Shown in pieces: positions 38,518 to 62,985 of a stretch of DNA of 64,000 bases. The notes under the pieces are model-generated. The model searched no databases, was not told where the DNA came from, and worked only from the letters and a program-made list of their open reading frames with translations. The position numbers were made by a program, and so were the translations under genes. Source of the stretch: Candidatus Nanoarchaeia archaeon (lineage in GTDB: Archaea; Nanobdellota; Nanobdellia; SCGC-AAA011-G17; JAUYJU01); assembly GCA_030700155.1 (NCBI GenBank), contig JAUYJU010000027.1, positions 75,484 to 139,483 on the forward strand, read 5' to 3'. The number at the start of each line of letters is the position of its first letter. Position 1 is the first letter of the stretch.

Positions 38518-39345
38518 ATGATAGCAGACATCCTGTTAACAATTCTAGCATTAGTTGGATTAACTATAGCTTCAATAGTAGATCTAAAAAAAAGAGAAAT
38601 TCCAAACTGGACGAACTTCTCAATGATAGCAATTGCATTAGCAATCAGACTGATGCATTCTTCACTAACGTCAGAATGGTTTTATTTTCTATACGGAATT
38701 TTAGGGTTTATAATTATGTTAATAACAGGAAATCTAATGTATTACACAGGTCAATGGGGCGGCGGAGACTCAAAATTATTATTCGCATTAGGGGCAATCT
38801 ATGGAACAAAACCTTATTTCCTAAAGGATTTTCCAGCACCATTTTTAATAATATTATTCATCGCAATCCTATTCACAGGGGCAATCTACAGTTTAATTTA
38901 TAGTTTAGTTTTGGCAATAAAAAATAGAAAAGAATTCATAAAAGAATTAATAAATATCAACAAAAAATTAAGAAGATTAAGATTAACAATTACTATTCCC
39001 TCAATATTAATTATAATCCTATCTTTACTATTTTTATCAAAGGAGACTGCAATACCTTTGGCAGCTTTCGCAGCAATGTTAATTATAATTACCTACTGGA
39101 TAATCTATGCAAAAGCCGTCGAAACAGCTTGTTTAGTTAAAACAATATCAATTTCTAAACTTACAGAAGGAGATTGGATAGTGGATAAAGATATTAAAAC
39201 TAGATTTAAAATAGTTAAAACAGGAGTAACATTAACTCAAATAGTTAAATTAAAAGAAGAAAATATTAAGCAAGTAACAATTAAAAACGGAGTTCCGTTT
39301 GCACCATCTTTTTTAATAGCACTAATTATAATCTTAATAATTTAA
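38518..39345 (+). CDS. Prepilin/preflagellin peptidase (A24; PibD/FlaK-like)
   Basis: SIVDLKKREIP and GGGDSKL aspartates; multiple TMs; C-terminal LTEGDWI..GVPFAPSF. Confidence 0.88.
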   Translation: MIADILLTILALVGLTIASIVDLKKREIPNWTNFSMIAIALAIRLMHSSLTSEWFYFLYGILGFIIMLITGNLMYYTGQWGGGDSKLLFALGAIYGTKPYFLKDFPAPFLIILFIAILFTGAIYSLIYSLVLAIKNRKEFIKELININKKLRRLRLTITIPSILIIILSLLFLSKETAIPLAAFAAMLIIITYWIIYAKAVETACLVKTISISKLTEGDWIVDKDIKTRFKIVKTGVTLTQIVKLKEENIKQVTIKNGVPFAPSFLIALIIILII

Positions 39346-40421: not shown

Positions 40422-40476
40422 GAACACTAATTCATAACTAAATATTTATAAAGCTTTCCTATGATATTACTATCGT

Positions 40477-40563
40477 GGGCGAGTAGTATAGCTTGGACAG
40501 TACGCGACCTTGCGGACAAGGGGTAAAAAGGTTGTAACCGAGGTTCAAATCCTCGCTCGCCCG
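40477..40563 (+). tRNA. tRNA-Arg (GCG) with a 13-nt intron at 37/38 (40516-40528)
   Basis: GGGCGAG/CTCGCCC acceptor, CGAGG-TTCAAAT-CCTCG T arm; removing ACAAGGGGTAAAA gives CGACC-TT GCG GA-GGTTG; TTGC pairs with intron GTAA as the BHB central helix. Confidence 0.85.
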
Positions 40564-40567
40564 TATC

Positions 40568-47720: not shown

Positions 47721-48218
47721 CTAGATTATCCAAGATATATTTATAAAATTATGCTTTACTACTAATACTACATCAAGTAAAACAAGCAAAACAAATAAAA
47801 CAGATTCTAAAATTCCTCCAGTGGTTATCGGTCCTGAAATCTTAAATCTAGATATTGGATAAAGAAAATCTATTCCACTTTTAGTAAACATATCTCCCAA
47901 TAAATGTGAAAAATAACCAATAGCTAAAGCCAACCCAATAAATCCAAATCCAAAATAATCAAAAATTAAATACAATCCGATTACTGGGAAAATAGAATGA
48001 AATATTCCCCTATGACTAACTACCCAAGAAATCATCCATGAGAAAGGGAAAAACAATTTAGAAATTTTGCTTTTAGGATGATCAATATCTGGAAATGAAC
48101 TGGCAATAGCAACAATAACTACAAATAACCATCTAGGACCAGTAAATATTTCATTAATAAAACTTAAACTAAAAAGCCCAACAAACAGTCCCAAAGCAAA
48201 ATGCGTTCTAAACATCAA
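47721..48218 (-). CDS. YdjM/LexA-binding-like inner-membrane metal-dependent hydrolase
   Basis: RTH, PDIDHP, HRGIFHS, YFSHLLGDMFT..G. Confidence 0.85.
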   Translation of the reverse strand: MMFRTHFALGLFVGLFSLSFINEIFTGPRWLFVVIVAIASSFPDIDHPKSKISKLFFPFSWMISWVVSHRGIFHSIFPVIGLYLIFDYFGFGFIGLALAIGYFSHLLGDMFTKSGIDFLYPISRFKISGPITTGGILESVLFVLLVLLDVVLVVKHNFINISWII

Positions 48219-49212
48219 TTTTAATCACTTTAGCAAGCTCGTCTGCAATCTGTTTAGGATCTACTTCTTCAACCCTAGAAGTCATAAATTCAATTCTATT
48301 AAACATCTCATTCTTATTCGCTCTTCCAAAGATAAGAAATTGCTTTCCAAGTAAATCGTTTTTAATAGTCTCAAAATTAGCAGTTTTCACAACCCCTGTA
48401 TTCATGCCTAAAATTTTTTCAGCTTGATCCCTGAAAGCAACGCATCTTAAATTAGCAGTTCCATCATCTAAAAAGAAGTTCAAAACAGCAGCTTCTCCTT
48501 TTTCAGTTTCACCATGTTGTTTACAAATTGCTTTTCCATTTTCTAGAGTAACTTTTTTTCCACATTGAGTGCAATTATCATAAAACCTCGGTTCAAATAT
48601 TTGAGTAATAGTTCCTATGACACCTGCAGCATCTCCTGAATTAAGATCTTTCAATAACTTTCTCTCAAAGTTAGGAGCACTTCCAGCTTCTTTTACAGTT
48701 CCAATAGTTATTCCCTCAGGATTAACTTCAATTTCACCTTGATTTCCAACATTAACTTCATTAAAACCATTATTATTCTTAACATAACCATTCTTTACCC
48801 TTACAACAACATCTTCTTTTATATCTCCATTTTCCATCTTAGAAATCAAATTTGTATCCCACATAACTACCCTGACTCTTCCAGTTTCATCTCCTATCAA
48901 AAAACTAGCAACTTTTCCAGATCTTCCATTCTTATTAAACTCAAATACTCTATACAATTTCAAAACCTTGCCAGCAACAATAACAGACCTCATTCCAGAA
49001 ACCAATCTCTCAATTTTAATCTCTCTTTTATTTAAAGGATCAAGTAATTTAACACCTAATTCATTAGCAACAATATGCGCGGCACCCTCTTTAGAAATAA
49101 GATCTGATAATTTTGTTAATTTTTCCTTGACTTTTTCTTTAATTTGGTCTTCGGAAAGGCCTTTTTCCTCTTTTATTTTACCCACAATTTCGTCATAAGA
49201 CAATTGTAACAT
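48208..49212 (-). CDS. rpa: Replication protein A large subunit (OB-folds + Zn finger)
   Basis: GKVASFLIGDETGRVRVVMW; CTQC..CKQH; LDDGTANLRCVAF. Confidence 0.88.
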   Translation of the reverse strand: MLQLSYDEIVGKIKEEKGLSEDQIKEKVKEKLTKLSDLISKEGAAHIVANELGVKLLDPLNKREIKIERLVSGMRSVIVAGKVLKLYRVFEFNKNGRSGKVASFLIGDETGRVRVVMWDTNLISKMENGDIKEDVVVRVKNGYVKNNNGFNEVNVGNQGEIEVNPEGITIGTVKEAGSAPNFERKLLKDLNSGDAAGVIGTITQIFEPRFYDNCTQCGKKVTLENGKAICKQHGETEKGEAAVLNFFLDDGTANLRCVAFRDQAEKILGMNTGVVKTANFETIKNDLLGKQFLIFGRANKNEMFNRIEFMTSRVEEVDPKQIADELAKVIKIDV

Positions 49213-49240: not shown

Positions 49241-50050
49241 TTATCTCGCTGATATTTTTAAAAACGGTGACTTATTTAAATCTATCGCAAATCTATAGTC
49301 TATATTACCGATAAACGCAGTATCTACTTTTGAGTTAACTATAAAAATTACAACTCCATCTTCTTTATCAAAAGACCACTTGAAATCTCTCTCTAAATCA
49401 GGTTTTATTTTATCCTTACATAAGTTATAGGCAGATTTTTCAGGATTGAACAACAAATTCTCTTTTCCAACAGCACTTCTTATACAACTCATAAAATTCT
49501 CTTCATATAATTGCGAGATAATTCGCTTATAATCCTCCAAATAAGTATTTATTTTTACCTTAAAATTTGGTTTGATTTCATAATTTACTTTATAATCAGC
49601 AGTTTTTCTTAATTTTAATGGTTGATTTGATTCTCCAATAATGAAAGCGTCGTCTTTCTCGTATATCAGGCTAAATTTAGAAAATTCAGGCACTACAAAA
49701 TAATTTTTTTCTGTTAATTTCTTGAATTCTTCAGCGAACTGTTTTTCAAAAACACCATTATAGGCTTGGATTGGATCACATTCATTGATTAAAGTCCAGC
49801 TTTCACAATCAACAACACCATTTTCAGCTAAACTTTTAACAGTATTATATCCTGCAAACTTAGCCAACTGATCAATGTAAAACATTTTTTGTTCTCCTTC
49901 TATTTGTAATTTAACAATGTCTGTTTGTAATATTCCAAGTGTTACTGTTGCCGGTTGATTTGCAGCAGAATAGACAGCAAAAGCTGCGTAAATCATTAAA
50001 ATAATTCCAAAGATATTCACTAATGGGAGTAATATTCCTTTTTTATTCAT
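49241..50050 (-). CDS. Pilin-like protein with class III signal peptide
   Basis: MNKKG|ILLPL followed by a hydrophobic helix and a soluble domain. Confidence 0.65.
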   Translation of the reverse strand: MNKKGILLPLVNIFGIILMIYAAFAVYSAANQPATVTLGILQTDIVKLQIEGEQKMFYIDQLAKFAGYNTVKSLAENGVVDCESWTLINECDPIQAYNGVFEKQFAEEFKKLTEKNYFVVPEFSKFSLIYEKDDAFIIGESNQPLKLRKTADYKVNYEIKPNFKVKINTYLEDYKRIISQLYEENFMSCIRSAVGKENLLFNPEKSAYNLCKDKIKPDLERDFKWSFDKEDGVVIFIVNSKVDTAFIGNIDYRFAIDLNKSPFLKISAR

Positions 50051-50054
50051 ATTC

Positions 50055-50558
50055 TCACTCTAATCTATAAAAATCGATTTTAATTGGTTTTTCACTTTCA
50101 TAATTAGGTATCAACTGTTCAGCATACCAAGCCGAATCCTTTCCAGAGAGACTTATAAATTTTTGAACATCATTTACTGTATAACTATATCCACTATAAA
50201 TCTCTTCAAAATTATGTATCTCAAATAATTGTTTGCCTTCACTATCTAAAACAAACATAATCCATTCAAAATCCGGTTTAAAATTAGCTTCTGTATACAT
50301 TTTAAAAAGTTCAAAATCATTAGTATTTACAGAATCAGCAACTAAATCAGAAACAGTTTTTTCATCGTTAACATATGTCATCATATAAACTAATAGCTCC
50401 TCTCTTGCCTCTATCTCAGGTCCAAATCTGCCTATAACTTCTTGTTTATCCCCACCATAGAACAAGCTTAGTAGAGCAAATATTATAACAGCAACTGCAA
50501 TAAATAATATACTTGTAAATATATCAGCAAATTCTTCCTGGCCTTTTTTGTTAAGCAT
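50055..50558 (-). CDS. Pilin-like protein (likely start ATG 50558)
   Basis: MLNKKG|QEEFADIF followed by a hydrophobic helix. Confidence 0.65.
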   Translation of the reverse strand: MLNKKGQEEFADIFTSILFIAVAVIIFALLSLFYGGDKQEVIGRFGPEIEAREELLVYMMTYVNDEKTVSDLVADSVNTNDFELFKMYTEANFKPDFEWIMFVLDSEGKQLFEIHNFEEIYSGYSYTVNDVQKFISLSGKDSAWYAEQLIPNYESEKPIKIDFYRLE

Positions 50559-51009
50559 TTTGTAGCACCGCATTTATCTTGAGTTTTCCTTTTTGAAACC
50601 CTTCCTCATAAACTAGGATATTTTTTTCATAATTAAGACATTCATAATTCTTAAAATCACAAAGCCTCTTATTCACAAGATGAACTTTCTCATTATTATA
50701 AACACTCAGGGTTTTATCACCATAAGTTAACGCAAATTCTGCAGAAAATCTGCTCAATCTTATACATTCATCAAAAGTTTTTGTGTTAAATTTTTTAACA
50801 TCAATAATTAATGGTCTTTCCCTCACATCTTCATAAGCAAAACAAGAGTAGAGTGCTTTCTTCACTAAAGTATTTATTTCAATTTCACCAGCATTTACTT
50901 CTCTACTAACATCCAAAGCTAGAATCATCAAAATCATTCCAGTAACAAATAATAAATAAAAGATTCTAGCAATCATATATACGGTTTCTTTGGTAGTAAT
51001 TGCTGGCAT
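50551..51009 (-). CDS. Minor pilin-like protein (likely start ATG 51009)
   Basis: MPA|ITTKE (Glu at +5) then a TM helix; no basic leader; paired Cys. Confidence 0.55.
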   Translation of the reverse strand: MPAITTKETVYMIARIFYLLFVTGMILMILALDVSREVNAGEIEINTLVKKALYSCFAYEDVRERPLIIDVKKFNTKTFDECIRLSRFSAEFALTYGDKTLSVYNNEKVHLVNKRLCDFKNYECLNYEKNILVYEEGFQKGKLKINAVLQNA

Positions 51010-51010
51010 T

Positions 51011-51355
51011 TTAGATTTTTGTAATCTCCAGATCATAAGATCCTATTTTTTTTATATTAATATTATAATCCGTAGGTGCATAACTGTAGAGCACAGGAGT
51101 TTCTTTTCTTACAGCCACAGTTCCTTCAGCAACAGCAACATTAAACTCATATTTCATTGGATAATAAACAGTTACTTTTCCAGTGTCATATAAATTAATA
51201 GCCATTGCTATATCTCTAGAAATATAAGTCTGATGAAAAACTTCTCCTTTTGCTTCTCCATTTATTTTGCCAAATAAAGTAACAATAATAATGGCAGCAA
51301 ATATCATAAAAGCTATGTAAATTATAGTTCTCTCTTCCACACCTCTTTTATTCAT
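51011..51355 (-). CDS. Pilin-like protein (likely start ATG 51355)
   Basis: MNKRG|VEERT followed by a hydrophobic helix. Confidence 0.65.
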   Translation of the reverse strand: MNKRGVEERTIIYIAFMIFAAIIIVTLFGKINGEAKGEVFHQTYISRDIAMAINLYDTGKVTVYYPMKYEFNVAVAEGTVAVRKETPVLYSYAPTDYNINIKKIGSYDLEITKI

Positions 51356-51360
51356 CAACA

Positions 51361-52062
51361 TTATACAAGTTCTGCTTTCAGTTTACTATATCTTTCAATA
51401 TTAGCTTTAATCTGTTCATTAGTAGCATGTTCATTTATATAAACATAAATCGCATCTTCACCTTTAAAGACCTCTAAGTAAAGTCTTGTAGAACCCAAAT
51501 CAGGTTCTCCGATATCACATTCGCTCCCATATAAAAAAAGAGCTTCATATTCTTGATTTCCAGTTAAAGGATGTTTAACACTCATTTTTGCACCAGCAAA
51601 TCCACCTTGCATGGAGTCATCACTTGGTGCTAAAAAAATAATTTTTTCATCAAAATCTAAACAATCCTCTGGTGGATGCTGATCTCTATCAAAATCCCCT
51701 CCCGCTTTAGTTGCAGTATGTAAACATAAGCCAGCTTTCCCAAAAAGTTGAGGTGGTTTAGTTGCTGGTTCACCAGTACACATAGTTACTTCCAAATCCC
51801 TATTATGATTATATCCAACTAAAATTAACCCATCTTGCAAATAAAAAGCACGTGGATTTTCTAAATTAGAAATAAATGGTTCAGCTTTCTCAATTAATGC
51901 TCCTACGGCAGCCCACAAACCATGAAAATTATTTACAGAACCTTCATCAACAACAAATTCAAACAACCCCATAAAACCCATGCCAATGGCAAGTGAAGCA
52001 AGAGTTATTATAACTCCTAAAATTATCCCAATAATTGCTGAAGGAGTTAAGTTTATAGCCAT
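51361..52062 (-). CDS. Pilin/adhesin-like membrane-anchored protein
   Basis: N-terminal hydrophobic helix without a basic leader; Cys-containing exported domain; own TATA at 52086-52093. Confidence 0.55.
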   Translation of the reverse strand: MAINLTPSAIIGIILGVIITLASLAIGMGFMGLFEFVVDEGSVNNFHGLWAAVGALIEKAEPFISNLENPRAFYLQDGLILVGYNHNRDLEVTMCTGEPATKPPQLFGKAGLCLHTATKAGGDFDRDQHPPEDCLDFDEKIIFLAPSDDSMQGGFAGAKMSVKHPLTGNQEYEALFLYGSECDIGEPDLGSTRLYLEVFKGEDAIYVYINEHATNEQIKANIERYSKLKAELV

Positions 52063-52102
52063 TAGATAATAAACTCAAAAAGAACTATATAAAGTTTTAG
52101 TC

Positions 52103-52483
52103 TTAAGCTGCAGGTTGAACAGTTTCTTGAGCTTTACAAATATCTCCACAAGTTACTCCAAGCTCTTCACAAAAAACTCCAATTTCGTCATCGCCTTCTA
52201 CTTTACCATCATTATCCCTATCTATATCAAAATCAGCTGTACAAAATGCAGATTTTGAAGGATCAGGTAACAATTTAGCTTGATCACATCTCTGATGGCA
52301 AGTCTCAACTGCAATTACTTCACTAGTACCGGCAGTTGTTCCATAGAAAACTTCTCTTACAGTTTTTGTTAGACCCGCTGTTCCACCTAAAAAGAATGTA
52401 ACAACAACGATTAACACAAGAACTACCAAAATACCAAGAATTACAGTATTTAATGTCAGATCTACACCCTTTTTATTCATCAT
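52103..52483 (-). CDS. Candidate major pilin
   Basis: MNKKG|VDLTLNTVILGILVVLVLIVVV; six Cys; DRDNDG loop; own TATA at 52504-52511. Confidence 0.72.
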   Translation of the reverse strand: MMNKKGVDLTLNTVILGILVVLVLIVVVTFFLGGTAGLTKTVREVFYGTTAGTSEVIAVETCHQRCDQAKLLPDPSKSAFCTADFDIDRDNDGKVEGDDEIGVFCEELGVTCGDICKAQETVQPAA

Positions 52484-52718
52484 ATATTCTAAGTTTTAAC
52501 GTATTTATAAAGGTTATGGTGGGAATTAAAAGAAAAATAGCCATAGGCTCAATATCTAAAGGTGGTAAATCTTCAGGAATAACATTTTCTCGCAATTCAC
52601 TTAATTTTTGTGTCTGAGACCTGAATTGGGTACTAAAAATAAATATAACTGCTAATAAAACAATTAAAACAATCATCCATTTTACAACGGTTTCGAATTG
52701 CATGCCTTTTTTATCCAT
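52473..52718 (-). CDS. Short pilin-like protein
   Basis: MDKKG|MQFETVVKWMIVLIVLL. Confidence 0.65.
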   Translation of the reverse strand: MDKKGMQFETVVKWMIVLIVLLAVIFIFSTQFRSQTQKLSELRENVIPEDLPPLDIEPMAIFLLIPTITFINTLKLRIYDE

Positions 52719-52719
52719 T

Positions 52720-52842
52720 TTAACCTACATTGAACCAATTCAAAAAGATTTCTTTTAAAACATTTATTTCCTTTACAATAAAAAATAAAGCTATAACAAC
52801 AATTACCATAATTACTATCTTTGCAACAGTTTCAAATTCCAT
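52720..52842 (-). CDS. 40-aa micro-pilin-like ORF without leader (not in ORF track)
   Basis: GGAGGT SD; MEFETVAKIVIMVIVVIALFFIVKEINVLKEIFLNWFNVG*; resembles the mature N-terminus MQFETVVK of the next gene. Confidence 0.6.
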   Translation of the reverse strand: MEFETVAKIVIMVIVVIALFFIVKEINVLKEIFLNWFNVG

Positions 52843-52985
52843 TAAAATAACCTCCATATCTTAGAGGCAATATCCATTGCTCTTTCCCTCATAGCATAAA
52901 CAAATAGTATAGCCACTATCAAAACAAGTAACATAATCATCAGCATTCCAATATTATCCCAAATCCAATTAGCTTTTTTATCCAT
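52842..52985 (-). CDS. 47-aa micro-pilin-like ORF (not in ORF track)
   Basis: MDKKA|NWIWDNIGMLMIMLLVLIVAILFVYAMRERAMDIASKIWRLF*. Confidence 0.65.
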   Translation of the reverse strand: MDKKANWIWDNIGMLMIMLLVLIVAILFVYAMRERAMDIASKIWRLF

Positions 52986-52986
52986 T

Positions 52987-54012
52987 TTAATTCACAATTA
53001 TATCACATAACTTTGTTTCAACTTCATTATCTCCATCTTTTATTTTAATTTTTTGGTCAAATGCCCCCTCAGAAGGTAAAACAGAAATTCCACCAACACC
53101 TTTACATTTTGGACAATCAGCAAATGCTTTTGAAGCTGAAGTATAAATCGCATAACCTCCAGAGAATGCTGCAAATGCTGCACCTCCGCCCATCGCAGCA
53201 ATCATACCATAACCAGCAGAAGTTGCTCCAAATACAGCTAAAGTCAATCCACCTGTTAAGATAGCAGATCCAACTAAAACAATTCCTCCAGCAATAGCTA
53301 AACCATAAACATTAGCAGAAGATTTTGATTCTGGTTTATACATATTTACTAACACAGACGTACCTGGTAAAATTATTGAAGTTTCATCTGCATTTTTAGC
53401 CGCTTCCAAATCTCCTCTCTCAGCCCTATAAAATAATTCATAGTAACTATCTTCTTTTCCACTTGGAGAGTGAGTCATTAAATAAGAGGTCATACCTTTA
53501 ATCGACCTTTGATTTACAATTTCTTTAATCTTAGTTTCATCCATGCCTGGTTTAATTCCGCTAGTCATCCAAGCTTTCAAATCGTCATCAAATAAAACAG
53601 TATCACAAATTAAACAATAAGATAATCCATCATCATCCCAATTTGAAAAGGGGTCTATTTTTCCAGCACCAACTTTATTCCAGCAACTTAACATGGCATC
53701 TGCAATAATTTGATGCGCTGCATCTTGATCTATTTTATCACCAGTAACAACATCGGCTTTCTTAATCATTAATTCATTTCTTGAGCAATCTAACTTCACT
53801 GTTGGTCTACCTGTGCCTTTTACAGTCGGTATATCCTTGCTTCTAGAAGCAGCTTCAATGCTTTGTCTGCAACTAAATTCTTCTCCTTTTCCACCAACGC
53901 CCTCATACAGAAAAACTACAACCAATATTAAAACAACTGCGCTAATTAAAACAATTATTAACATCCCAACATTTTCAAATTCCCATGCACCTTTTTTATT
54001 TAAGTATGACAT
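52987..54012 (-). CDS. Large pilin-like protein with Cys-rich domain and an internal Gly/Ala-rich hydrophobic hairpin
   Basis: NKKG|AWEFE (Glu at +5); C..S; CW; YCLIC; C-terminal GLAIAGG..GGYAIY hydrophobic segment. Confidence 0.7.
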   Translation of the reverse strand: MSYLNKKGAWEFENVGMLIIVLISAVVLILVVVFLYEGVGGKGEEFSCRQSIEAASRSKDIPTVKGTGRPTVKLDCSRNELMIKKADVVTGDKIDQDAAHQIIADAMLSCWNKVGAGKIDPFSNWDDDGLSYCLICDTVLFDDDLKAWMTSGIKPGMDETKIKEIVNQRSIKGMTSYLMTHSPSGKEDSYYELFYRAERGDLEAAKNADETSIILPGTSVLVNMYKPESKSSANVYGLAIAGGIVLVGSAILTGGLTLAVFGATSAGYGMIAAMGGGAAFAAFSGGYAIYTSASKAFADCPKCKGVGGISVLPSEGAFDQKIKIKDGDNEVETKLCDIIVN

Positions 54013-54094
54013 TTTTAATAATCATGTAAGCTAAGATGACAAAAACTAATACCAATATTAGAACTACTATTTCTTGCATCTGCCCCTTTTTCAT
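53996..54094 (-). CDS. 32-aa micro-pilin-like ORF (not in ORF track)
   Basis: MKKG|QMQEIVVLILVLVFVILAYMIIKNVILK*; first ORF after a TATA-like CCTTAAAT near 54118-54125. Confidence 0.6.
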   Translation of the reverse strand: MKKGQMQEIVVLILVLVFVILAYMIIKNVILK

Positions 54095-54167
54095 TATTTA
54101 ACATCTCTTTCCTTGATATTTAAGGTTTTCCAATAAATTTAAATATACACTAAGGCCTATTTCAAAT

Positions 54168-54755
54168 ATGCCTAAAAAGAGTATTTCTAGAAAGGATGGT
54201 ATTAAAGAGATTACAAAATTAGAGAGAGAACAGATACAACTAGAAAAACAACAGTTACAAGAACAAAAAAAGATGCAAGTTCTTGAAAAAAGACAGTTAG
54301 AAGAGCTTGCAAAATTGGAAAAATTAGAAAAAGAGATAAGGTCAGAAGTAAGACCTCATCCCCTAAGAGATATAACTTATAGAGATTTAATAAAAGCAAC
54401 TATAGGTTCAATTGTAGGTATGGTTGCTCACTTCACTTTTATAGAAGGAGTCCATATAGCAGAAACAATTACAATTGCAAGAGCATCTATACTTTACCTT
54501 TTATCTTTCTTCCTTGGCGGTTCATTGTTGTACCTAACAGGTTTTAGAAAAGTTAAACAAAAATTAGTTTTAAAGATACTTCCTCTAAGATTAACAGTAA
54601 TCTATTTAACTGCGTTAGTCTGGATAGTTTTAGTGTTATTCACATTCGGAATTGTAGATTTAACAACACAATTCAATGAGATATATAAACAAGTCGCTGT
54701 AATCTCTATAATAGCAGTTATTGGAGCATCAGCAGCTGATTTAATTGGAGAATAA
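54168..54755 (+). CDS. DUF2391-like four-TM protein with N-terminal coiled coil
   Basis: Q/E/K-rich N-terminus; RDLIKATIGS; C-terminal IGASAADLI. Confidence 0.65.
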   Translation: MPKKSISRKDGIKEITKLEREQIQLEKQQLQEQKKMQVLEKRQLEELAKLEKLEKEIRSEVRPHPLRDITYRDLIKATIGSIVGMVAHFTFIEGVHIAETITIARASILYLLSFFLGGSLLYLTGFRKVKQKLVLKILPLRLTVIYLTALVWIVLVLFTFGIVDLTTQFNEIYKQVAVISIIAVIGASAADLIGE

Positions 54756-54756
54756 A

Positions 54757-55050
54757 ATGATAACAGCAGAATTACAAAAGATAAAACAATTGAAAAAAAG
54801 TTTTCACGATGAGTTACTGGAACTTTTAGCAGCAATAATTAGGATTATTGAAACTAAGGGAGAAGTCAACGAAGCTTATATCAACAAAGCAAAAAAAGCA
54901 GCAGAGGGTTTAAGGAAAATATACCAACTAGAAGAAAATACAATAAAAGAAAGAACATTAAAATTACTTCTAATCTATCTCAAAAGAAAAGATATAGAAA
55001 AATTAGAAAGTGAATTATCTAATATTCTCGATATAATAAAAAAATATTAA
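54757..55050 (+). CDS. Helical hypothetical protein (likely start ATG 54757)
   Basis: GGAG SD at 54747-54750; K/E/L-rich. Confidence 0.5.
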   Translation: MITAELQKIKQLKKSFHDELLELLAAIIRIIETKGEVNEAYINKAKKAAEGLRKIYQLEENTIKERTLKLLLIYLKRKDIEKLESELSNILDIIKKY

Positions 55051-55475
55051 ATTGGTAACTTCAAAGTTCCAGCAACAAAGGGTTCTAAGAATGGCCAAAT
55101 ATAAGGTGAAGTTGTTATCAAAATTGCAATAACAAAACTATGTGCCCATGTTTCTCCTATAGAAGGTCCTAAACCACTTGATTTTATTACCGCAGCTGCT
55201 GCATGAACTTTAACCATAGCAAGTAAACCAATTGCAATTCTTATTATTAATATATTAGAAAGGATAGGTATTGTTTCTAATCCAGGGATCACTGAATAGA
55301 TAAAATCAACATTCATAGCTAAAAACACAAAGAACATTGTAACCAATAATGCATGCCACCCATGTTTTAACCAATGACTTCCTCTAAAAGCTTCATCTTT
55401 ATGAACTAAAAACATCTCATATAATCCAATTACTAATCCAATGTATACTGCAGGTAAAAAAATAAATTCAGCCAT
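55047..55475 (-). CDS. Multi-TM membrane protein of the pilus locus
   Basis: FIFLPAVYIGLVIGLYE..HKDEAFRGSHW; four hydrophobic segments. Confidence 0.65.
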   Translation of the reverse strand: MAEFIFLPAVYIGLVIGLYEMFLVHKDEAFRGSHWLKHGWHALLVTMFFVFLAMNVDFIYSVIPGLETIPILSNILIIRIAIGLLAMVKVHAAAAVIKSSGLGPSIGETWAHSFVIAILITTSPYIWPFLEPFVAGTLKLPI

Positions 55476-55479
55476 TATC

Positions 55480-55695
55480 TCACTCCTTAAATCCTAGCAT
55501 TTTAGCTATTTTATTTCTCTCTCCATTCCCTGAAGAAAACAATCCAATCAAAGCAACTAATACACCAAGAACCATTAAAGTATATTGGTAATTTTGTCCT
55601 GAAGTTGGAATCATACTAGGTACTAATCCTGGAAATAGTGGCAAAGCTGCTACAATCACTACCAACACTCCTAAAATAAATATTAATTTATTCAT
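55480..55695 (-). CDS. Small two-TM protein
   Basis: 71 aa, two hydrophobic helices, translationally coupled to neighbours. Confidence 0.6.
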   Translation of the reverse strand: MNKLIFILGVLVVIVAALPLFPGLVPSMIPTSGQNYQYTLMVLGVLVALIGLFSSGNGERNKIAKMLGFKE

Positions 55696-56312
55696 TTTGA
55701 ACCTTTCAACCCGAATTTTTTAATTCCCCCTATAATCAATGCTACTATTGCAATTATAAAGACACCACCCATAAAATCAGATTGTGTAAACCTATTCAAT
55801 AAATCACTAATAAATCCAACATTTCCAAAATAACTGGATAACATATTAGCCAACCATATCACGCTTATAGCTGCTAAGGATCCAGCAATTAAATTACTTT
55901 TAACTAGATTATCTTTAACGATTCTAAACACAAGCAAACCACATAAGATAATCAATACTGTTACAGCCCAAGGTCCAGCAATATCTAATAATTTAAAATT
56001 TTGTCTTGCTTCAAATAATAATAAAGAAGCCGTCATAAACAATCCAATTCCAATATACAAAGGTTTGTGACTTTCTTCTTTGAAAACCATGCTTCCTAAT
56101 CCAAAAAATATAAATCCAAAGATTATAGCATCAATAAATAAGTGATATTTATCATAGATAGATTCAAAATCAAAACCACTTCCAAAACCACCATAATACC
56201 AAGGCTTATATTGTGGTTGTGGATACTGTTCATATTCATAAGGATAATATTCAGCGCTTACACTTCCTATTAAAAGAACTAAAAATAATAAATAAATCCA
56301 GCCTCTTTTCAT
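55692..56312 (-). CDS. Multi-TM protein; paralogue of the N-terminal domain of 56338-58497
   Basis: Shared VSAEYYP, SIY..FIDA.I, YIG..LF, AG.W, GG.KKFGLK. Confidence 0.7.
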   Translation of the reverse strand: MKRGWIYLLFLVLLIGSVSAEYYPYEYEQYPQPQYKPWYYGGFGSGFDFESIYDKYHLFIDAIIFGFIFFGLGSMVFKEESHKPLYIGIGLFMTASLLLFEARQNFKLLDIAGPWAVTVLIILCGLLVFRIVKDNLVKSNLIAGSLAAISVIWLANMLSSYFGNVGFISDLLNRFTQSDFMGGVFIIAIVALIIGGIKKFGLKGSK

Positions 56313-58528: not shown

Positions 58529-60667
58529 CTATATACCTGCAGATACACCAACGCCAACTGCGCCGGCAAGTAAATTAAAGATTATTATACCTATCAAACA
58601 AATTACACTATATATTGATAAACTCCATACTAAATTTTTTCCTAAAGAATAACCAGTTCCAACTCTATCTACTCCTTTTTCAATGCCGCTAGCCAAAAAA
58701 GTCAAAATCATTCCAATCTGAACAACATATAATCCAACAACAATCTGGAATTGATACCCGGGAATAACATCTTGAATATTTAATACTCCACCCAATGCAG
58801 CCAATCCACCAAGACCTTCACCAGCACCACCTAAAGTAGCAAATTGTGTACTTAATTTATTAATTATAGTAACTACCATTGAACTGACACCAACAACAAT
58901 ACCTGCAATCAAAGGAGTCAAAAAACTTATTTGTGATTTCATCGAACTTATTACTTCAGCAAGCAAATCTTTCAACCTATCATTAACTTGCCTTATTCTC
59001 TCAACATATTTGGATATAGTAAGTAAAGAATTTGAAACTATCATTGGACCCTTTCTAGCACTTTGAATTAAAACCTTCATTGAACTTTCAATTAATTTAC
59101 TTGGAAAATTTATTATCGCTCCTCTTTGTTTATCAAAGATAGCATATTCAACACCAACACCCATTCTTCTTACATTACTATCTACTCTTGCAAAAAACTC
59201 CCCACTTGGAGTTCCTTTCATATTTTCCGCAACATAACCAAATGCACTCTCAACAGGAATTCCATCAGCAACTCTATTTCCTAACTGAAATAGAGCACCA
59301 GCAAACTCTCTCTCAAGTTCATCCATTTTTTTCTTAATTTTGATTAATTTTTCATATCTTCTTTTATAATAAGTTCCGATTCCAACTGCAGCCCCCATAG
59401 GAACAAACAAACTTAATATCAAAGCACCAGCCCCATAAGGACCGTTGCCTTGCTGATAATCCAAAAATAATCCTCCAGGGACTACAAAATCAAAACCTGG
59501 ATTTAAAATATGTACATACCATGGGAAAAATCCAATAACAAAGAAAGGAATTGCATAAATCAAACCAACAATCCAAGGTTTAACTTCCATACCCATAAAC
59601 TTTGTTTTTTCAAATTTTTTATAATCGGGATGTTCTCTTAAAATATCTGATTCCCCGTAACCTGTAGGCCTTTTTGATAATAAATTAAGACCCATAAACA
59701 TTACAAATAAGGGTAAAACAAGGTTATACAATATGGCTATATGCCACCATTTAATCAAACCACCTAAAAAACTCCCAATTAAAGGAAAAACAACCAATCC
59801 CAAAATAGGTAAAACAACCCCAAGCATGTGCAATGCAGTTATTGGAGATTGCAATTCATGTGCATATCTCAACATTTTATCATAAGTTCCTTCTAACATA
59901 ACTTGCAAGGCTTTCTCAAGCATAGAAATTCTTCTTTCTTCATTTGATTCTTGCAAACTTCCTTGAATTAAATGAAAAGCTTCAATGAATTCTAAATTCC
60001 ATCCTCTCCATGATTCCAAATAATCATCTAAACTATCTTTTATTGTAACAAATTTTCCAGTTTGAATATTCCAAAAAATTCTTTTGAAATCCAAGTTTAA
60101 TGGCGGGCCAATATGTTCAGAAGCAAATTTTATTGCATGTTCTAAATTTGAAGTATGTCTCATGTACATAACTATATACAAAATAGACAAAACCATTTGG
60201 TTACTTGCAGCCAATCTCCATCTGTTAGCTAAATGATGTGGAATGCTTCCAAGTGGTTTTATTAAAACAGCCCCACCAACAATTAATACTAAAGGTAAAA
60301 AGATTTTAAACTGTCCTAATAAAAAAGTAAAAATTCCAACAAATAATCCAATTGAAATTAATAACAAAGAAGCAAATACTCCAAAACTTACAGCACCAGC
60401 AGGTGTTACAGAAATGTGAGCAATCCTTATGCTTTCATCTAATCTCTTTTGTTCTTCTTTTGAAGGCGTTATTCTAATAATTTTTTCAGAAAAATTACAA
60501 AGTTTTTCATAAAGTGTAATTTCACCTTCCAAAGCTTCTTCTCTGAAAACCTGATATTCACGAGAAACAGTTTTTGTTGGTTTTACAAATTCTTTACTAT
60601 CTAGTTCTCTTTCAAATCGTTTTTGATATTTTTCTAAAACGTCCCTTACTTCTTTTTTATCTGCCAT
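58529..60667 (-). CDS. Type II/IV secretion membrane platform protein (TadB/TadC-like, two T2SSF-type halves)
   Basis: Repeated soluble-domain/TM-cluster architecture; ELEREFAGALFQLGNRVADGIPVE; coupled to the ATPase. Confidence 0.85.
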   Translation of the reverse strand: MADKKEVRDVLEKYQKRFERELDSKEFVKPTKTVSREYQVFREEALEGEITLYEKLCNFSEKIIRITPSKEEQKRLDESIRIAHISVTPAGAVSFGVFASLLLISIGLFVGIFTFLLGQFKIFLPLVLIVGGAVLIKPLGSIPHHLANRWRLAASNQMVLSILYIVMYMRHTSNLEHAIKFASEHIGPPLNLDFKRIFWNIQTGKFVTIKDSLDDYLESWRGWNLEFIEAFHLIQGSLQESNEERRISMLEKALQVMLEGTYDKMLRYAHELQSPITALHMLGVVLPILGLVVFPLIGSFLGGLIKWWHIAILYNLVLPLFVMFMGLNLLSKRPTGYGESDILREHPDYKKFEKTKFMGMEVKPWIVGLIYAIPFFVIGFFPWYVHILNPGFDFVVPGGLFLDYQQGNGPYGAGALILSLFVPMGAAVGIGTYYKRRYEKLIKIKKKMDELEREFAGALFQLGNRVADGIPVESAFGYVAENMKGTPSGEFFARVDSNVRRMGVGVEYAIFDKQRGAIINFPSKLIESSMKVLIQSARKGPMIVSNSLLTISKYVERIRQVNDRLKDLLAEVISSMKSQISFLTPLIAGIVVGVSSMVVTIINKLSTQFATLGGAGEGLGGLAALGGVLNIQDVIPGYQFQIVVGLYVVQIGMILTFLASGIEKGVDRVGTGYSLGKNLVWSLSIYSVICLIGIIIFNLLAGAVGVGVSAGI

Positions 60668-62985
60668 TACTTCTTTTTCAATTCATTCTTGACCCAGTCT
60701 TCCCATCTGCTGGCAATCATCTTAGAATCTAAAGCTCCAACTTCTATCCTTACATCATCTGAAATCCTATGGAAAGCATCATTAGAGGCTACAACAAAAG
60801 GTGCTTCCAATATTTTCTTATTATTCAGTTTATTAGAATATCCAACAAGCATTTCCTTAAGTTTAGCACGTAATAAAACATTATTCCAAATAGAATCCCA
60901 ATCTCCTGCCCATTCTTTTACATTAGTTGCAACAGCTTTCAAAGTTTCACTCTCTCCATTTATTAGGGCATCAGTAGGTTCCAAAATATCTTTCTCTGGA
61001 TTATACTTCATTAAATCTACAAAACCATTTTCAGCTAAAGGATCATCAACCCAATGTTTCCTTACTTCTGTTATTTGGGTTATTCTTTTTTTTCTATGCA
61101 ACCCATCAGGAGTTTTTATTGGATTTGCAACAACAATTAAATCAGTAGCTTTAAAACTTGTCTTGGGAACCTCTAAATCATTTACAACTCTATCATAAAC
61201 TCCATAAGGACTTGCACCATGTATTGTTCCAGCTACAACATTTGCTAATGCACCTACACGCATTGCTTCATAAAGCGCTTTTGCTTCCAATGATCTGACT
61301 TCTCCGACAATTAAGCTTGAATCACCTAAACGCAATGAAGTTCTTATTCCTTCATCAGCAGCTAACTCTCCACCAACCATAGTCAATGCAGCACGAACTT
61401 TCATCTGTTGTATATTATATCCTAAATCTCTCAAAGATTTAACTGGTAATTCTAAAGTGTCTTCAATAGTCAAAACTCTGTATCGCCTCATAATCTCAAC
61501 CAAAATGCTTCCTAAAAAAGAAGTTTTTCCAGAAGATCTTGTTCCAGCAACAAGTATAGTTCTTGCACCATCAATCATAAAGCTCATCAACCCAGCGCCC
61601 AAGGGATCTATCATTCCATTCTGAATAAATAGTGGCAAAGTCCATGGATTATCTCTGTGTCTTCTCAAGGCATAAGCAAGCCCAGTTGGAGACAAAGGTT
61701 TTGTCATTACCGCAACTCTTGCTCTTGCTCCAGGTATTGCTAATTCCGTATCTAAAACTGGGTTAGCTTCATCTAAGGGTCTTCCACTTATTAATCTAAA
61801 TTTAGAAGCCCATGATTCTGCATCTTCAACAGACGGAATAATATTTGTTGCACATTCATCATAATCCTGATGTACTATATACATAGGAGAAGCACCTGCA
61901 GGACCATTAATAGTTATATCTTGGATTTTTGGGTCTTGTAATAAAATCTCAATCAATCCAAATCCAACAGTATATCTAACTAAAATACTGGCAAGTTCAT
62001 GTATCTTAGAATAAGGTAAATTTATCCTTTTAGTCTCAGCTAATTCAGTAATTAAATCTCTTCCAATATTGAAAAAAGTTCTCCTCATCTTTGAGGGATC
62101 TAAAAATTCTTCTTCTCTTGGTTTATGTTCAGCAAGAACTTGTTTTGCTAAATCAAGTAGAGCATATTCATCTTCACTTAACTTGAATTCTGGAGGATTA
62201 ACATGATAAAGAGTTTTAATATCTCCGGGAATTTTATACAAATTAATTTCAGCTTCTCCAACCGTATAGAAATCAACTTGTTCTCCATCAATTGGTGTTT
62301 CAGCCATTAACCTGGTGTACATAAAATCAGGAGTAATCACAGGTCTGAAAACTTCTTTATACAAACCCCTATCACCGATAGAATATCCGTCAAGATTATC
62401 TTCAACTTTTTTAATCAAAGAGGTTTGTCCAAGTAGGGTATACAAATACATTAAATTTCCAAGGTAGGTTTGTCTTGACTCAATTACCCTGGAATCAATA
62501 TCACCTTTAAGATGAATTTTTTCTTCTCTAATCAATCTCTTTAATTCTACATAGGCTCCAACAGGATCTGTTCTTAATAAATTAAAAACAATATAATTTA
62601 CAGCATTAGCCCTCAATTGTAAAAACCTTGGATCAAGTCCACCTAACGCATTTGGACCAAAAACTTTTTTTTGCCTCACTACATGATCATAAAGTTGTGC
62701 AATTTCAACAAGCATTTGAGTTTGTTCATAGTCATAAGCATAATTTCTTCTTTGTTTAAAAATAATTCTTGAGACTTGTGGAACATTAACTAATCTATCT
62801 ATAGCAAAACCCATAACTGCAGAACTATCTTCAACTGATGGCGAGTAAGGCCATTTTAAAGAATTTACCCTCATTATTTCCTCTCCACCCTCTTCCACTA
62901 ATTCATAATCTCGTTGCTCAGTTTTTTCTTCAGAAACAGATTCCTTTCTATCTACCTCTTCTTTTTTAGCCATAATTAAGTTCAA
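60667..62985 (-). CDS. Type IV pilus / type II secretion assembly ATPase (VirB11/TadA-like) with long N-terminal extension
   Basis: AGTRSSGKTS Walker A, TIEDTLEL Asp box, LRLGDSSLIVGEVR Walker B, GTIHG His box. Confidence 0.92.
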   Translation of the reverse strand: MNLIMAKKEEVDRKESVSEEKTEQRDYELVEEGGEEIMRVNSLKWPYSPSVEDSSAVMGFAIDRLVNVPQVSRIIFKQRRNYAYDYEQTQMLVEIAQLYDHVVRQKKVFGPNALGGLDPRFLQLRANAVNYIVFNLLRTDPVGAYVELKRLIREEKIHLKGDIDSRVIESRQTYLGNLMYLYTLLGQTSLIKKVEDNLDGYSIGDRGLYKEVFRPVITPDFMYTRLMAETPIDGEQVDFYTVGEAEINLYKIPGDIKTLYHVNPPEFKLSEDEYALLDLAKQVLAEHKPREEEFLDPSKMRRTFFNIGRDLITELAETKRINLPYSKIHELASILVRYTVGFGLIEILLQDPKIQDITINGPAGASPMYIVHQDYDECATNIIPSVEDAESWASKFRLISGRPLDEANPVLDTELAIPGARARVAVMTKPLSPTGLAYALRRHRDNPWTLPLFIQNGMIDPLGAGLMSFMIDGARTILVAGTRSSGKTSFLGSILVEIMRRYRVLTIEDTLELPVKSLRDLGYNIQQMKVRAALTMVGGELAADEGIRTSLRLGDSSLIVGEVRSLEAKALYEAMRVGALANVVAGTIHGASPYGVYDRVVNDLEVPKTSFKATDLIVVANPIKTPDGLHRKKRITQITEVRKHWVDDPLAENGFVDLMKYNPEKDILEPTDALINGESETLKAVATNVKEWAGDWDSIWNNVLLRAKLKEMLVGYSNKLNNKKILEAPFVVASNDAFHRISDDVRIEVGALDSKMIASRWEDWVKNELKKK

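What the first reader, a model, noticed from the sequence alone, without database searches (positions are those of the whole stretch)
52473..54094. Hidden array of ultra-short pilin-like peptides (28-43 aa mature) interleaved with larger pilins
Seen: three ORFs below the ORF-caller cutoff: 53996-54094 (MKKG|QMQEIVV..., 28 aa after the cleavage site), 52842-52985 (MDKKA|NWIWD...) and 52720-52842 (MEFETVAK..., strong GGAGGT SD, no leader). All are butted or overlapping with their neighbours. They share N-terminal motifs with adjacent genes (EFETVAK vs QFETVVK; WDNIGMLMI vs FENVGMLII). Established: [KR][GA]|hydrophobic is the class III signal cleaved by A24 peptidases, and one is encoded at 38518. 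Inference: these are headless pilins made only of the alpha-1 helix. They could be initiation, stop or spacer subunits, or membrane-retained regulators of a DPANN attachment filament. Standard annotation would miss them.
Basis: partly seen in the sequence, partly recalled or inferred. Interest (0 to 1): 0.75.

Follow-up and report, generated by a model that had tools for sequence, protein, structure and literature searches.

The report
Headless pilin-like micro-proteins in DPANN pilus operon
Three tiny genes (32, 47 and 40 codons) inside an archaeal type IV pilus operon are real and conserved, and each encodes only the membrane helix of a pilin with no head domain; this resembles the known head-less Tad/Flp pilins but is smaller, and its role is unknown.

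Summary
On the minus strand, three micro-ORFs sit butted against or overlapping larger pilin-like genes: U (53996-54094, 32 aa), D1 (52842-52985, 47 aa) and D2 (52720-52842, 40 aa).

They are real genes. The same three ORF types occupy the same positions in about 20 related DPANN loci whose large neighbour is only 30-48% identical. dN/dS is 0.03-0.34. SD-like or TATA-like signals are conserved upstream. D1 belongs to a discrete ~50-aa family with 740 representative clusters.

Each protein is a leader ([KR][KR]G/A) plus a ~20-residue hydrophobic helix plus a short amphipathic tail, so it corresponds to pilin helix alpha-1 only. The operon has a T2SSE ATPase and a PilC-like platform upstream, and an A24 peptidase lies 14 kb away.

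- D1, D2 and the 81-aa ORF are already annotated proteins in NCBI. Only U is missed.
- The 81-aa "pilin" is a truncated remnant of a ~480-aa gene.
- D2 lost its leader only in this clade.
- Some U homologues have no K/R-G motif.

Head-less pilins are already known (Tad/Flp, 40-60 aa). I rate this a new variant of a known kind. The function (minor or priming subunit versus membrane-retained partner) is inferred, not shown.

The parts
53996..54094 (-). U: 32-aa micro-protein. MKKG leader, 18-residue hydrophobic helix, KNVILK tail. First cistron of the pilin block.
   Evidence: ORF. A homologous 32-44 aa ORF lies immediately upstream of, or overlapping, the 341-aa homologue in 18 loci. dN/dS is 0.05 for L007 vs L017. 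The sequence is not in the protein collection, so it was not called, and it was not called in L017 either.
54116..54123 (-). TATA-like box TTAAATAT centred about 26 nt upstream of the U start codon (candidate promoter giving a leaderless or short-leader mRNA)
   Evidence: Read directly from the sequence. The same CCTTAAATAT sits at the same distance in L007 and L017, and AAAAGATTTAAATA lies upstream of U in L002, L004 and L005. Its role as a promoter is inferred from the archaeal TATA consensus, not tested.
52987..54012 (-). 341-aa pilin-like protein. Class III-like N-terminus (LNKKG|AWEFEN), 51-residue N-terminal helix, Cys-rich alpha/beta domain, Gly-rich hydrophobic segment at ~230-292.
   Evidence: 20 homologues at 30-48% identity with 8 invariant Cys. 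AF2 gives helix 8-58, pLDDT 71, and residues 230-292 below 50. No PDB fold match. No Pfam family.
52842..52985 (-). D1: 47-aa micro-protein. MDKKA leader, D at +5, TM helix, basic amphipathic tail.
   Evidence: Conserved directly after the 341-aa homologue in 11 loci. Profile search finds 35 proteins of 43-60 aa. Exhaustive search finds 740 clusters. dN/dS 0.11-0.34. AF2 predicts a single helix, pLDDT 83. Already in NCBI/nr as P0029.
52720..52842 (-). D2: 40-aa leaderless micro-protein (MEFETVAK...). Its start overlaps the D1 stop (TAATG), with GGAGGT upstream.
   Evidence: Orthologues in 10 loci; leaderless in the window, L007, L017 and L008, with a K/R-G leader in L001, L009, L018, L022, L006 and L012. 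dN/dS 0.03-0.33. A GGAG-like SD is conserved in all 10 loci. The 40-aa form is in NCBI/nr as P0057.
52473..52718 (-). 81-aa ORF: truncated orthologue of a ~470-530-aa pilin-like protein. In effect a fourth alpha-1-only product, made by deletion.
   Evidence: Its first ~55 residues align with the N-termini of the 472-527-aa proteins at the same position in L001, L006, L009, L017, L018 and L022, and with a 144-aa form in L008. tblastn finds no remnant of the rest in the window.
52103..52483 (-). 126-aa pilin-like protein, the most likely major pilin of the locus
   Evidence: Class III-like N-terminus MMNKKG|VDLTLNT. 69% identical to the L017 orthologue, against ~45% for the 341-aa protein. Duplicated in L022. 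This assignment is inferred.
49241..52062 (-). Five further genes of the same operon (233, 116, 161, 172 and 269 aa). The 116-, 172- and 269-aa genes have a K/R-G + TM N-terminus.
   Evidence: The same gene order is found in L017, L018 and L022.
58529..62985 (-). Assembly ATPase (60667-62985) and PilC/TadC-like platform (58529-60667)
   Evidence: Pfam T2SSE E 7.8e-14. T2SSF hit is weak, E 0.009. In relatives these genes are contiguous with the pilin block.
38518..39345 (+). A24 prepilin peptidase
   Evidence: Pfam PF01478, E 4.6e-15. In L023 an A24 peptidase lies inside the homologous operon.

Best explanation
U, D1 and D2 are translated, selected genes. Each encodes a single-helix membrane protein that corresponds to helix alpha-1 of a type IV pilin and has no head domain. 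They are head-less paralogues of the larger pilin-like genes beside them, and they are fixed parts of a T4P-like machine that is widespread in DPANN (Woesearchaeota/Nanoarchaeota-type) archaea.

Proposed mechanism (inferred):
1. They are co-transcribed from a promoter just upstream of U and translated by coupling, using overlapping stops and starts and SD motifs embedded in the preceding gene.
2. They are too short for co-translational targeting, so they insert into the membrane after release from the ribosome.
3. U and D1 are cut after the conserved Gly/Ala by the A24 peptidase. D2 in this clade is already made in a 'mature-like' form.
4. Through their alpha-1 helices they pack with the alpha-1 helices of the large-headed subunits (341 aa; ~480 aa in relatives). 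They act as low-abundance minor or priming subunits that fill core positions of the filament or its base without adding a head.

The 126-aa protein, not the micro-proteins, is the likely major pilin.

Shown: the genes are real, conserved and under purifying selection; they have leader + TM + tail architecture; they are syntenic with ATPase, platform and peptidase; they are paralogous to neighbours' N-termini.

Inferred: cleavage, topology, incorporation into a filament, and role.
For: - Positional conservation in about 20 loci whose 341-aa neighbour is only 30-48% identical.
- dN/dS for the unsaturated pair L007/L017: U 0.05, D1 0.27, D2 0.03. Window vs relatives: 0.16-0.34.
- D1 family: 35 proteins of 43-60 aa. 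740 representative clusters, and the matches end at the protein C-terminus, so it is a stand-alone family rather than fragments.
- Gly before the cleavage site is nearly invariant in D1. That is the hallmark of an A24 site rather than a mere positive-inside flank. D or E sits at +5 in most D1.
- AF2 predicts D1 as one continuous helix. The 341-aa neighbour has a 51-residue N-terminal helix.
- The D1 and D2 profiles are related (hhalign 92.5%).
- In L024 a 50-aa gene is an obvious head-less copy of the adjacent 118-aa major-pilin-like gene.
- The D2 N-terminus resembles the N-terminus of its own genome's downstream large protein more than those of other genomes (52.4 vs 40.2, permutation p 4.5e-4).
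- Class III-like N-termini cluster strongly: 8 contiguous hits against 0.4 expected in the whole window.
- Machinery: ATPase, platform and A24 peptidase are present. The peptidase lies inside the operon in L023.
- SD-like motifs are conserved upstream of D1 and D2, and a TATA-like box upstream of U.
- Precedent: Tad pilins are 40-60-residue helices without a head and still build pili (PMC10710030). M. maripaludis pilins are 54-63 aa when mature (PMC3875500).
Against: - There is no evidence of translation, cleavage or filament incorporation.
- The K/R-G leader is missing in D2 of this clade and in 4 of 18 U homologues, so processing cannot be essential for all of them.
- A K or R follows the TM directly in almost every sequence, and leaderless D2 has an acidic N-flank. 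The positive-inside rule therefore does not clearly give the N-in prepilin topology.
- Mature U (28 aa) is too short and too hydrophobic to present a polar filament surface.
- The 341-aa partner has a second hydrophobic Gly-rich segment that might keep it in the membrane.
- No curated pilin model (Flp_Fap, Class_IIIsignal, Pilin_N) matches. The best was PF04021 at E 7.4 for one D1 member.
Confidence: 0.5

Rival explanations
1. The micro-proteins stay in the membrane and never enter a filament. They are small single-pass partners or regulators of the assembly platform or of the 341-aa / ~480-aa membrane proteins. For example, they could stabilise those proteins' TM helices, gate subunit entry, or compete for the peptidase or platform.
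For: - Basic residues flank the TM on both sides and the N-flank is acidic in leaderless D2.
- Some U and D2 lack the K/R-G motif.
- U is always translationally coupled to the 341-aa gene, and that protein carries an extra Gly-rich hydrophobic segment which could anchor it.
- Mature U is essentially only a TM helix.
Against: - The near-invariant Gly at -1 and the acidic +5 residue in D1 are what a peptidase and assembly substrate needs. A mere anchor does not need them.
- The proteins are clear paralogues of pilin N-termini.
- Tad pilins show that helix-only subunits can polymerise (PMC10710030).
Confidence: 0.3
2. One micro-protein, most plausibly D1, is the major subunit of a thin Tad/Flp-like helix-only pilus. 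The larger class III proteins would then be minor pilins or tip adhesins.
For: - Mature D1 (42-46 aa) falls in the Tad size range of 40-60 residues (PMC10710030).
- It has a conserved charged amphipathic tail that could form a polar surface.
- The family is very widespread.
- AF2 predicts one continuous helix.
Against: - D1 has no promoter or intergenic spacer of its own. It sits 1 nt after the 341-aa gene.
- It occurs as a single copy per locus.
- The 126-aa gene is the best conserved pilin (69% identity), is duplicated in L022 and has its own upstream spacer in relatives.
- There is no Flp G/xxxxEY motif and no PF04964 hit.
Confidence: 0.12
3. The micro-ORFs are non-functional: chance ORFs, decaying 5' duplicates of neighbouring pilin genes, or mere uORFs whose peptide sequence is irrelevant.
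For: - Short ORFs of this size are common by chance in any frame.
- The neighbouring 81-aa ORF really is a truncation remnant.
- U overlaps the 341-aa start, as a regulatory uORF would.
Against: - The ORFs are kept in frame, with the same architecture and position, across loci that are saturated at synonymous sites.
- dN/dS is 0.03-0.34.
- There are 740 D1 clusters of constant length.
Confidence: 0.03

Closest known systems
Tad/Flp pilins (type IVc pilins; e.g. Caulobacter crescentus PilA, PDB 8U1K; Pfam PF04964 Flp_Fap)
   Same: Both have a class III-type leader followed by a single continuous alpha-helix with no globular head. Tad pilins are 40-60 mature residues, and D1 (42) and D2 (39-40) are at the lower edge of that range. 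Both are assembled by an archaeal-type ATPase/platform system, and Tad is thought to derive from archaeal pili (PMC10710030).
   Different: - No Flp motif (G/xxxxEY) and no PF04964 hit.
- Three distinct families per locus, interleaved with 300-500-aa pilin-like genes, rather than one abundant first gene.
- U is far shorter (28 aa mature).
- D2 is leaderless here.
- A head-bearing 126-aa protein is the likelier major pilin.
Small Methanococcus maripaludis pilins (MMP1685/EpdE major pilin, MMP1283/EpdD; Pfam PF04021 Class_IIIsignal / DUF361)
   Same: Both are very small archaeal class III signal proteins. Those of M. maripaludis are 67-76 aa as precursors and 54-63 aa when mature. They serve as major or essential minor pilins and are processed by a dedicated A24 peptidase (PMC3875500).
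   Different: - The window proteins are 20-30 residues shorter.
- They lack the conserved Q+1 / E+5 DUF361 signature. The only PF04021 hit was E 7.4 for one D1 member.
- They are encoded inside the operon, between large genes.
Bacterial minor-pilin priming sets (FimU-PilVWXE / GspHIJK) and Tad pseudopilins TadE/TadF
   Same: Both are operon-encoded sets of several different class III proteins next to the major pilin. The bacterial sets are thought to prime assembly and form the tip. This knowledge comes from the T4P literature (e.g. PMC5979040 abstract).
   Different: All known minor pilins carry a globular domain, and the micro-proteins have none. There is no sequence or fold relationship.
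Geobacter sulfurreducens PilA-N (61-aa alpha-1-only pilin paired with PilA-C)
   Same: Both are alpha-1-only polypeptides encoded next to a gene for a larger partner (discussed in PMC10710030).
   Different: Here the downstream large proteins keep their own alpha-1 helix, so this is duplication or truncation rather than fission of one pilin into helix plus head.

Membership tests
Type IV pilin-like (class III signal peptide) proteins | Short basic leader ending in Gly/Ala at -1 | tested here: inconclusive
   - U: MKKG| is present. Among homologues, 14 of 18 have K/R-G.
- D1: MDKKA| in the window and KKG| in nearly all 34 family members.
- D2: absent in the window, L007, L017 and L008; present in 6 more distant orthologues.
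Type IV pilin-like (class III signal peptide) proteins | About 20 hydrophobic residues directly after the cleavage site, forming the N-terminal half of a long alpha-1 helix | tested here: met
   TM segments of 18-22 residues in all three. AF2 predicts D1 as a continuous helix 12-46, pLDDT 83.
Type IV pilin-like (class III signal peptide) proteins | Cleavage by an A24 prepilin peptidase | not testable with these tools
   Only the gene is shown: PF01478 at 38518-39345, and an A24 peptidase inside the homologous operon in L023.
Type IV pilin-like (class III signal peptide) proteins | Genomic association with a secretion ATPase (PilB/FlaI family) and a PilC/TadC platform | tested here: met
   T2SSE at 60667-62985 and a T2SSF-like gene at 58529-60667. 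The same linkage is seen in L017, L018, L022, L023 and L024.
Type IV pilin-like (class III signal peptide) proteins | Polymerisation into, or incorporation in, a filament | not testable with these tools
   No multimer prediction or experimental data were available.
Tad/Flp pilins (PF04964) | Flp motif: G/xxxxEY followed by a hydrophobic stretch; match to the Flp_Fap profile | tested here: not met
   No Tyr at +6. There is no PF04964 hit at E<=10 for any of the 21 D1/D2 sequences, nor for U.
Tad/Flp pilins (PF04964) | Mature length 40-60 residues with no C-terminal domain | tested here: inconclusive
   D1 at 42 aa and D2 at 39-40 aa are borderline. U at 28 aa is outside the range (range from PMC10710030).
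Archaeal Class_IIIsignal / DUF361 pilins (PF04021) | Conserved Q at +1 and E at +5 (QxSxEx) and a match to the profile | tested here: not met
   U has Q+1 but E+4. D1 has N+1/D+5. The only hit is PF04021 at E 7.4 for one D1 member.

The most novel reading that the evidence does not exclude
DPANN T4P-like machines need a dedicated set of head-less alpha-1-only subunits. These would include the shortest pilin-like protein known (28 residues mature) and a naturally leaderless one that bypasses the prepilin peptidase. They would act as core 'spacers' or primers, so that very bulky head-bearing subunits (340-530 aa) can be stacked at the tip or base of the attachment pilus. This would be a new principle of T4P architecture. 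It would also show how pilins shrink (the 81-aa truncation in this window) or arise from helix-only precursors.
Probability: 0.2. Interest if true: 0.75.

Novelty: new variant of a known kind. Interest (0 to 1): 0.5.

Why it matters
DPANN archaea live attached to host cells, and their pili are thought to mediate that contact. The subunits of those pili are essentially uncharacterised.

This work defines three conserved micro-protein families (U, D1, D2) as fixed parts of a widespread DPANN T4P-like operon. D1 alone has about 740 sequence clusters. None of the three has a Pfam or NCBIfam model.

If they are built into the filament or its priming complex, they push the lower size limit of pilin-like subunits from about 40 residues down to about 28. 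They would also include a natural leaderless pilin, and they would give a testable model for how large adhesin-type subunits are accommodated.

Practically, the 32-aa U gene is missed by current annotation, and all three families are labelled only 'hypothetical protein'.

Tried and rejected
- Exact look-up of the 341-aa protein found no contig.
- A single-sequence scan of genome contigs found nothing.
- The full 19-sequence alignment was too divergent for the search for related loci. The 9-sequence alignment worked.
- Pfam and NCBIfam scans of all operon proteins and of every D1/D2 member gave only sub-threshold hits to unrelated TM families such as EssA, PEF-CTERM, DUF6480 and ODV-E18. I rejected these as hydrophobic noise.
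- PDB sequence searches with the D1 profile and the 126-aa protein gave only chance TM hits.
- Foldseek of the 341-aa model against PDB gave nothing below E 0.24, so the head domain could not be classified.
- tblastn of the L017 479-aa protein against the window found no remnant of the lost ectodomain.
- I considered the longer 45-aa start for D2 (52857) and rejected it. The 40-aa start overlaps the D1 stop, has the SD, is the conserved start in L007, L017 and L008, and is the form deposited in NCBI.
- I considered U as a pure regulatory uORF and rejected it because the peptide sequence is under purifying selection.
- Charge-based topology prediction was inconclusive.
- Literature searches found no description of DPANN micro-pilins.
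- I ran no further search on the U family, because the verdict would not change.
Full report
**1. What is in the sequence**

The region lies in a minus-strand operon running from 54094 down to 49241. In transcription order the genes are:
- U, 32 aa, 53996-54094
- a 341-aa protein, 52987-54012
- D1, 47 aa, 52842-52985
- D2, 40 aa, 52720-52842
- an 81-aa ORF, 52473-52718
- a 126-aa protein, 52103-52483
- five more genes of 233, 116, 161, 172 and 269 aa

All junctions are tight. U overlaps the 341-aa gene by 17 nt. There are 1-nt gaps on either side of D1/D2, and a TAATG stop/start overlap between D1 and D2 with GGAGGT upstream. The 81-aa ORF overlaps the 126-aa gene by 11 nt.

Upstream on the same strand are a T2SSE-family ATPase (60667-62985, E 7.8e-14) and a PilC/TadC-like membrane protein (58529-60667, weak T2SSF hit). 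An A24 prepilin peptidase is at 38518-39345 (E 4.6e-15).

**2. Is it more than chance?**

A 32-codon ORF on its own is not remarkable in 32% GC DNA, but its architecture and conservation are.

A six-frame scan for a [KR][GA] within the first 13 residues followed by a strongly hydrophobic 17-mer gave 12 hits in the 64-kb window. Eight of them form one contiguous block at 49241-54094, including U and D1. Shuffled sequence gave 0.4 hits.

The 341-aa protein has 20 database homologues at 30-48% identity. I recovered about 20 loci that encode them, from genome and metagenome collections and by exact look-up.
- In 18 of these loci a 32-44-aa ORF with the same build lies immediately upstream of, or overlapping, the homologue (the U family).
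- In 11 loci a 46-51-aa ORF follows it directly (D1).
- In 10 loci a 39-49-aa ORF follows that (D2).

For the pair L007/L017, which is close enough that synonymous sites are not saturated, dN/dS is 0.05 (U), 0.27 (D1) and 0.03 (D2). The window against its relatives gives 0.16-0.34.

**3. Expression signals (sequence only)**

- D2 is preceded by a GGAG-type Shine-Dalgarno motif in all 10 loci. The motif is embedded in the D1 codons for K-E-L/V.
- D1 is preceded by GGTGA, which is formed by the invariant terminal L/I-V-N-stop codons of the 341-aa family.
- U is preceded by TTAAATAT (54116-54123), centred about 26 nt upstream of its ATG. The same CCTTAAATAT is at the same distance in L007 and L017, and a BRE/TATA-like AAAAGATTTAAATA lies upstream of U in L002, L004 and L005.

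This fits U being the first cistron of a leaderless or short-leader mRNA. That is an inference from the archaeal promoter consensus, not a measurement.

**4. Are they 'hidden'?**

Only partly. The exact 47-aa, 40-aa and 81-aa sequences of this contig (233,749 nt) are already proteins in NCBI/nr. The 32-aa U is not, nor is its L017 counterpart (gene table). Gene calling is inconsistent: L018 and L019 have the same layout, but the micro-genes are called only in L019.

A profile of D1 finds 35 proteins of 43-60 aa, all unnamed or 'hypothetical protein' from Nanoarchaeota-type MAGs. An exhaustive HMM search of 1.84 billion representatives finds 740 clusters at E<=1e-3 and 65 at E<=1e-10. Nearly all of the top 150 are 43-73 aa, and the match runs to the C-terminus. 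D1 is therefore a discrete, widespread micro-protein family and not a fragment of something larger. No Pfam or NCBIfam model covers U, D1 or D2.

**5. What the proteins are**

Each is a short basic leader, about 5-8 polar or acidic residues, an 18-22-residue hydrophobic helix, and a 6-18-residue amphipathic tail that often ends in F/L-x-G.

In D1 the Gly (Ala in the window) before the putative cleavage site and the preceding Lys are nearly invariant, and an Asp/Glu sits at +5 in most members. A peptidase and assembly substrate would require these features. A mere positive-inside flank would not.

AF2 predicts D1 as one continuous helix (residues 12-46, pLDDT 83). It predicts the 341-aa neighbour as a 51-residue N-terminal helix followed by an alpha/beta domain. 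The micro-proteins thus correspond to helix alpha-1 and nothing else.

Paralogy with the larger genes is visible directly:
- The D1 and D2 profiles align (hhalign 92.5%).
- In L024 a 50-aa gene is an evident head-less copy of the adjacent 118-aa major-pilin-like gene.
- The D2 N-terminus resembles that of the large protein just downstream in its own genome more than those in other genomes (mean local score 52.4 vs 40.2, permutation p 4.5e-4). This suggests gene conversion or co-evolution. It is only suggestive, because shared lineage composition could contribute.

**6. Corrections and complications**

(a) D2 has a K/R-G leader in the more distant loci (MNKG|DFEISK, MKKG|AIEMEM and others). In the window, L007, L017 and L008 it starts M-E/H-F/W-E-T, right at the equivalent of +1. 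The leaderless form is therefore a derived state that is nevertheless maintained (dN/dS 0.03).

(b) Four of 18 U homologues lack K/R-G, as does the 34-aa one in L023.

(c) The 81-aa ORF is the N-terminal ~55 residues of a protein that is 472-527 aa at the same position in L001, L006, L009, L017, L018 and L022, and 144 aa in L008. It is a truncation product, in effect a fourth alpha-1-only ORF, and it shows one route by which such genes arise.

(d) The 341-aa protein is not a textbook pilin. It has eight invariant Cys, a variable Gly/Ala-rich hydrophobic stretch (~230-292, pLDDT below 50) that may be a further membrane segment, and no fold match in PDB.

(e) Almost every micro-protein has a K/R directly after the TM, and leaderless D2 has an acidic N-flank. 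The positive-inside rule therefore does not unambiguously give prepilin topology.

**7. Most likely mechanism**

I commit to the following. The micro-proteins are alpha-1-only, pilin-like minor subunits of the T4P-like machine. They insert post-translationally, since they are shorter than or about as long as the ribosomal exit tunnel (general knowledge). Where a K/R-G/A site exists they are processed by the A24 peptidase. They then pack through alpha-1 with the large-headed subunits, as part of the priming or tip complex or the filament base. I put this at about 0.5.

The 126-aa protein is the better candidate for the major pilin. It is 69% identical to its L017 orthologue, is duplicated in L022, and has its own upstream spacer in relatives.

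Rivals:
- Membrane-retained partners or regulators, 0.3.
- A Tad-like helix-only major pilin (D1), 0.12.
- Non-functional ORFs, about 0.03.

That U, D1 and D2 are real genes specifying selected peptides I hold at above 0.95.

**8. Comparison with what is known**

Head-less pilins are established. Tad/Flp pilins are 40-60 residues, lack a C-terminal domain and still form pili with archaeal-type helix packing (PMC10710030). The M. maripaludis major pilin and EpdD are 54-63 aa when mature (PMC3875500).

The window proteins work like these in architecture, but they fail the family tests. They have no Flp motif or PF04964 match, and no DUF361/PF04021 signature.

They differ in several ways. There are three distinct families per locus, interleaved with 300-500-aa class III proteins. 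They are smaller (28-42 aa mature). One is leaderless.

Surveys of archaeal T4P/TFF systems (PMC4858521; bioRxiv 10.64898/2026.04.22.720090) do not mention such genes in the passages my term searches returned. Neither do the DPANN papers I checked. Absence from the held library is not proof of absence.

**9. Verdict**

This is a new variant of a known kind.

Interest is moderate (0.5). The conservation is striking and the families are unannotated. The concept has clear precedent, however, and the function is not established.

Noticed in passing
window 52473-52718: The 81-aa ORF is a truncated orthologue of a 472-527-aa class III protein found at this position in most relatives (144 aa in L008). 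The window lineage has lost the whole ectodomain.
   Followed up: yes
window 52987-54012 (residues ~230-292 of the 341-aa protein): A Gly/Ala-rich hydrophobic low-complexity segment of variable length lies between a Cys-rich domain and a small C-terminal CxxC beta-domain. There are eight invariant Cys. AF2 confidence in the segment is below 50 and the head has no PDB fold match. It may be an extra membrane hairpin in a 'pilin-like' protein.
   Followed up: partly
window 54168-55475: A divergently oriented gene group splits the ATPase/platform genes from the pilin block in the window and in L017. It comprises a 195-aa DUF2391 membrane protein and a 101-aa ORF on the + strand, and a 142-aa membrane protein on the - strand. 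Other relatives carry a PIN toxin (L018) or MNT/HEPN-type genes (L022) upstream of the pilin block, between the platform gene and the ~206-216-aa membrane-protein gene. This looks like an insertion hot-spot.
   Followed up: no
L023 10106-10948: In a distant DPANN relative, a 280-aa protein with a class III-like N-terminus (MNKRG|DIPITIL...) carries an SLT lytic transglycosylase domain (PF01464). It sits in the same operon as an A24 peptidase. A murein-cleaving enzyme on a pilin-like anchor in an archaeon hints at interaction with bacterial cell walls.
   Followed up: no
L018 1-3058 and L024 1-3896: The T2SSE assembly ATPase of these relatives is interrupted by an intein with a LAGLIDADG homing endonuclease (PF14890, PF14528).
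   Followed up: no
window 40476-40564: ARAGORN reports an 89-nt tRNA with an undetermined 4-base anticodon (cgga). It is possibly an intron-containing archaeal tRNA that was mis-parsed.
   Followed up: no
window 47721-49212 and the same position in L017, L018, L020, L021, L024: An RPA-like OB-fold ssDNA-binding protein lies directly downstream of the pilin operon in these five otherwise divergent loci. In the window, L017 and L024 a YdjM-family membrane protein follows it. The reason for this linkage is unknown.
   Followed up: no
window 55480-56312 and 56338-58497: Three further membrane proteins of 71, 206 and 719 aa lie between the platform gene and the pilin block. The 719-aa one has a long coiled-coil-like, charged region. 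The 71-aa and 206-aa genes have counterparts in L006, L012, L013, L017 and L022 (the ~206-aa gene also in L018), and a ~717-aa counterpart of the 719-aa gene is seen in L006 and L013. None has a Pfam family. They are probably machine components.
   Followed up: no
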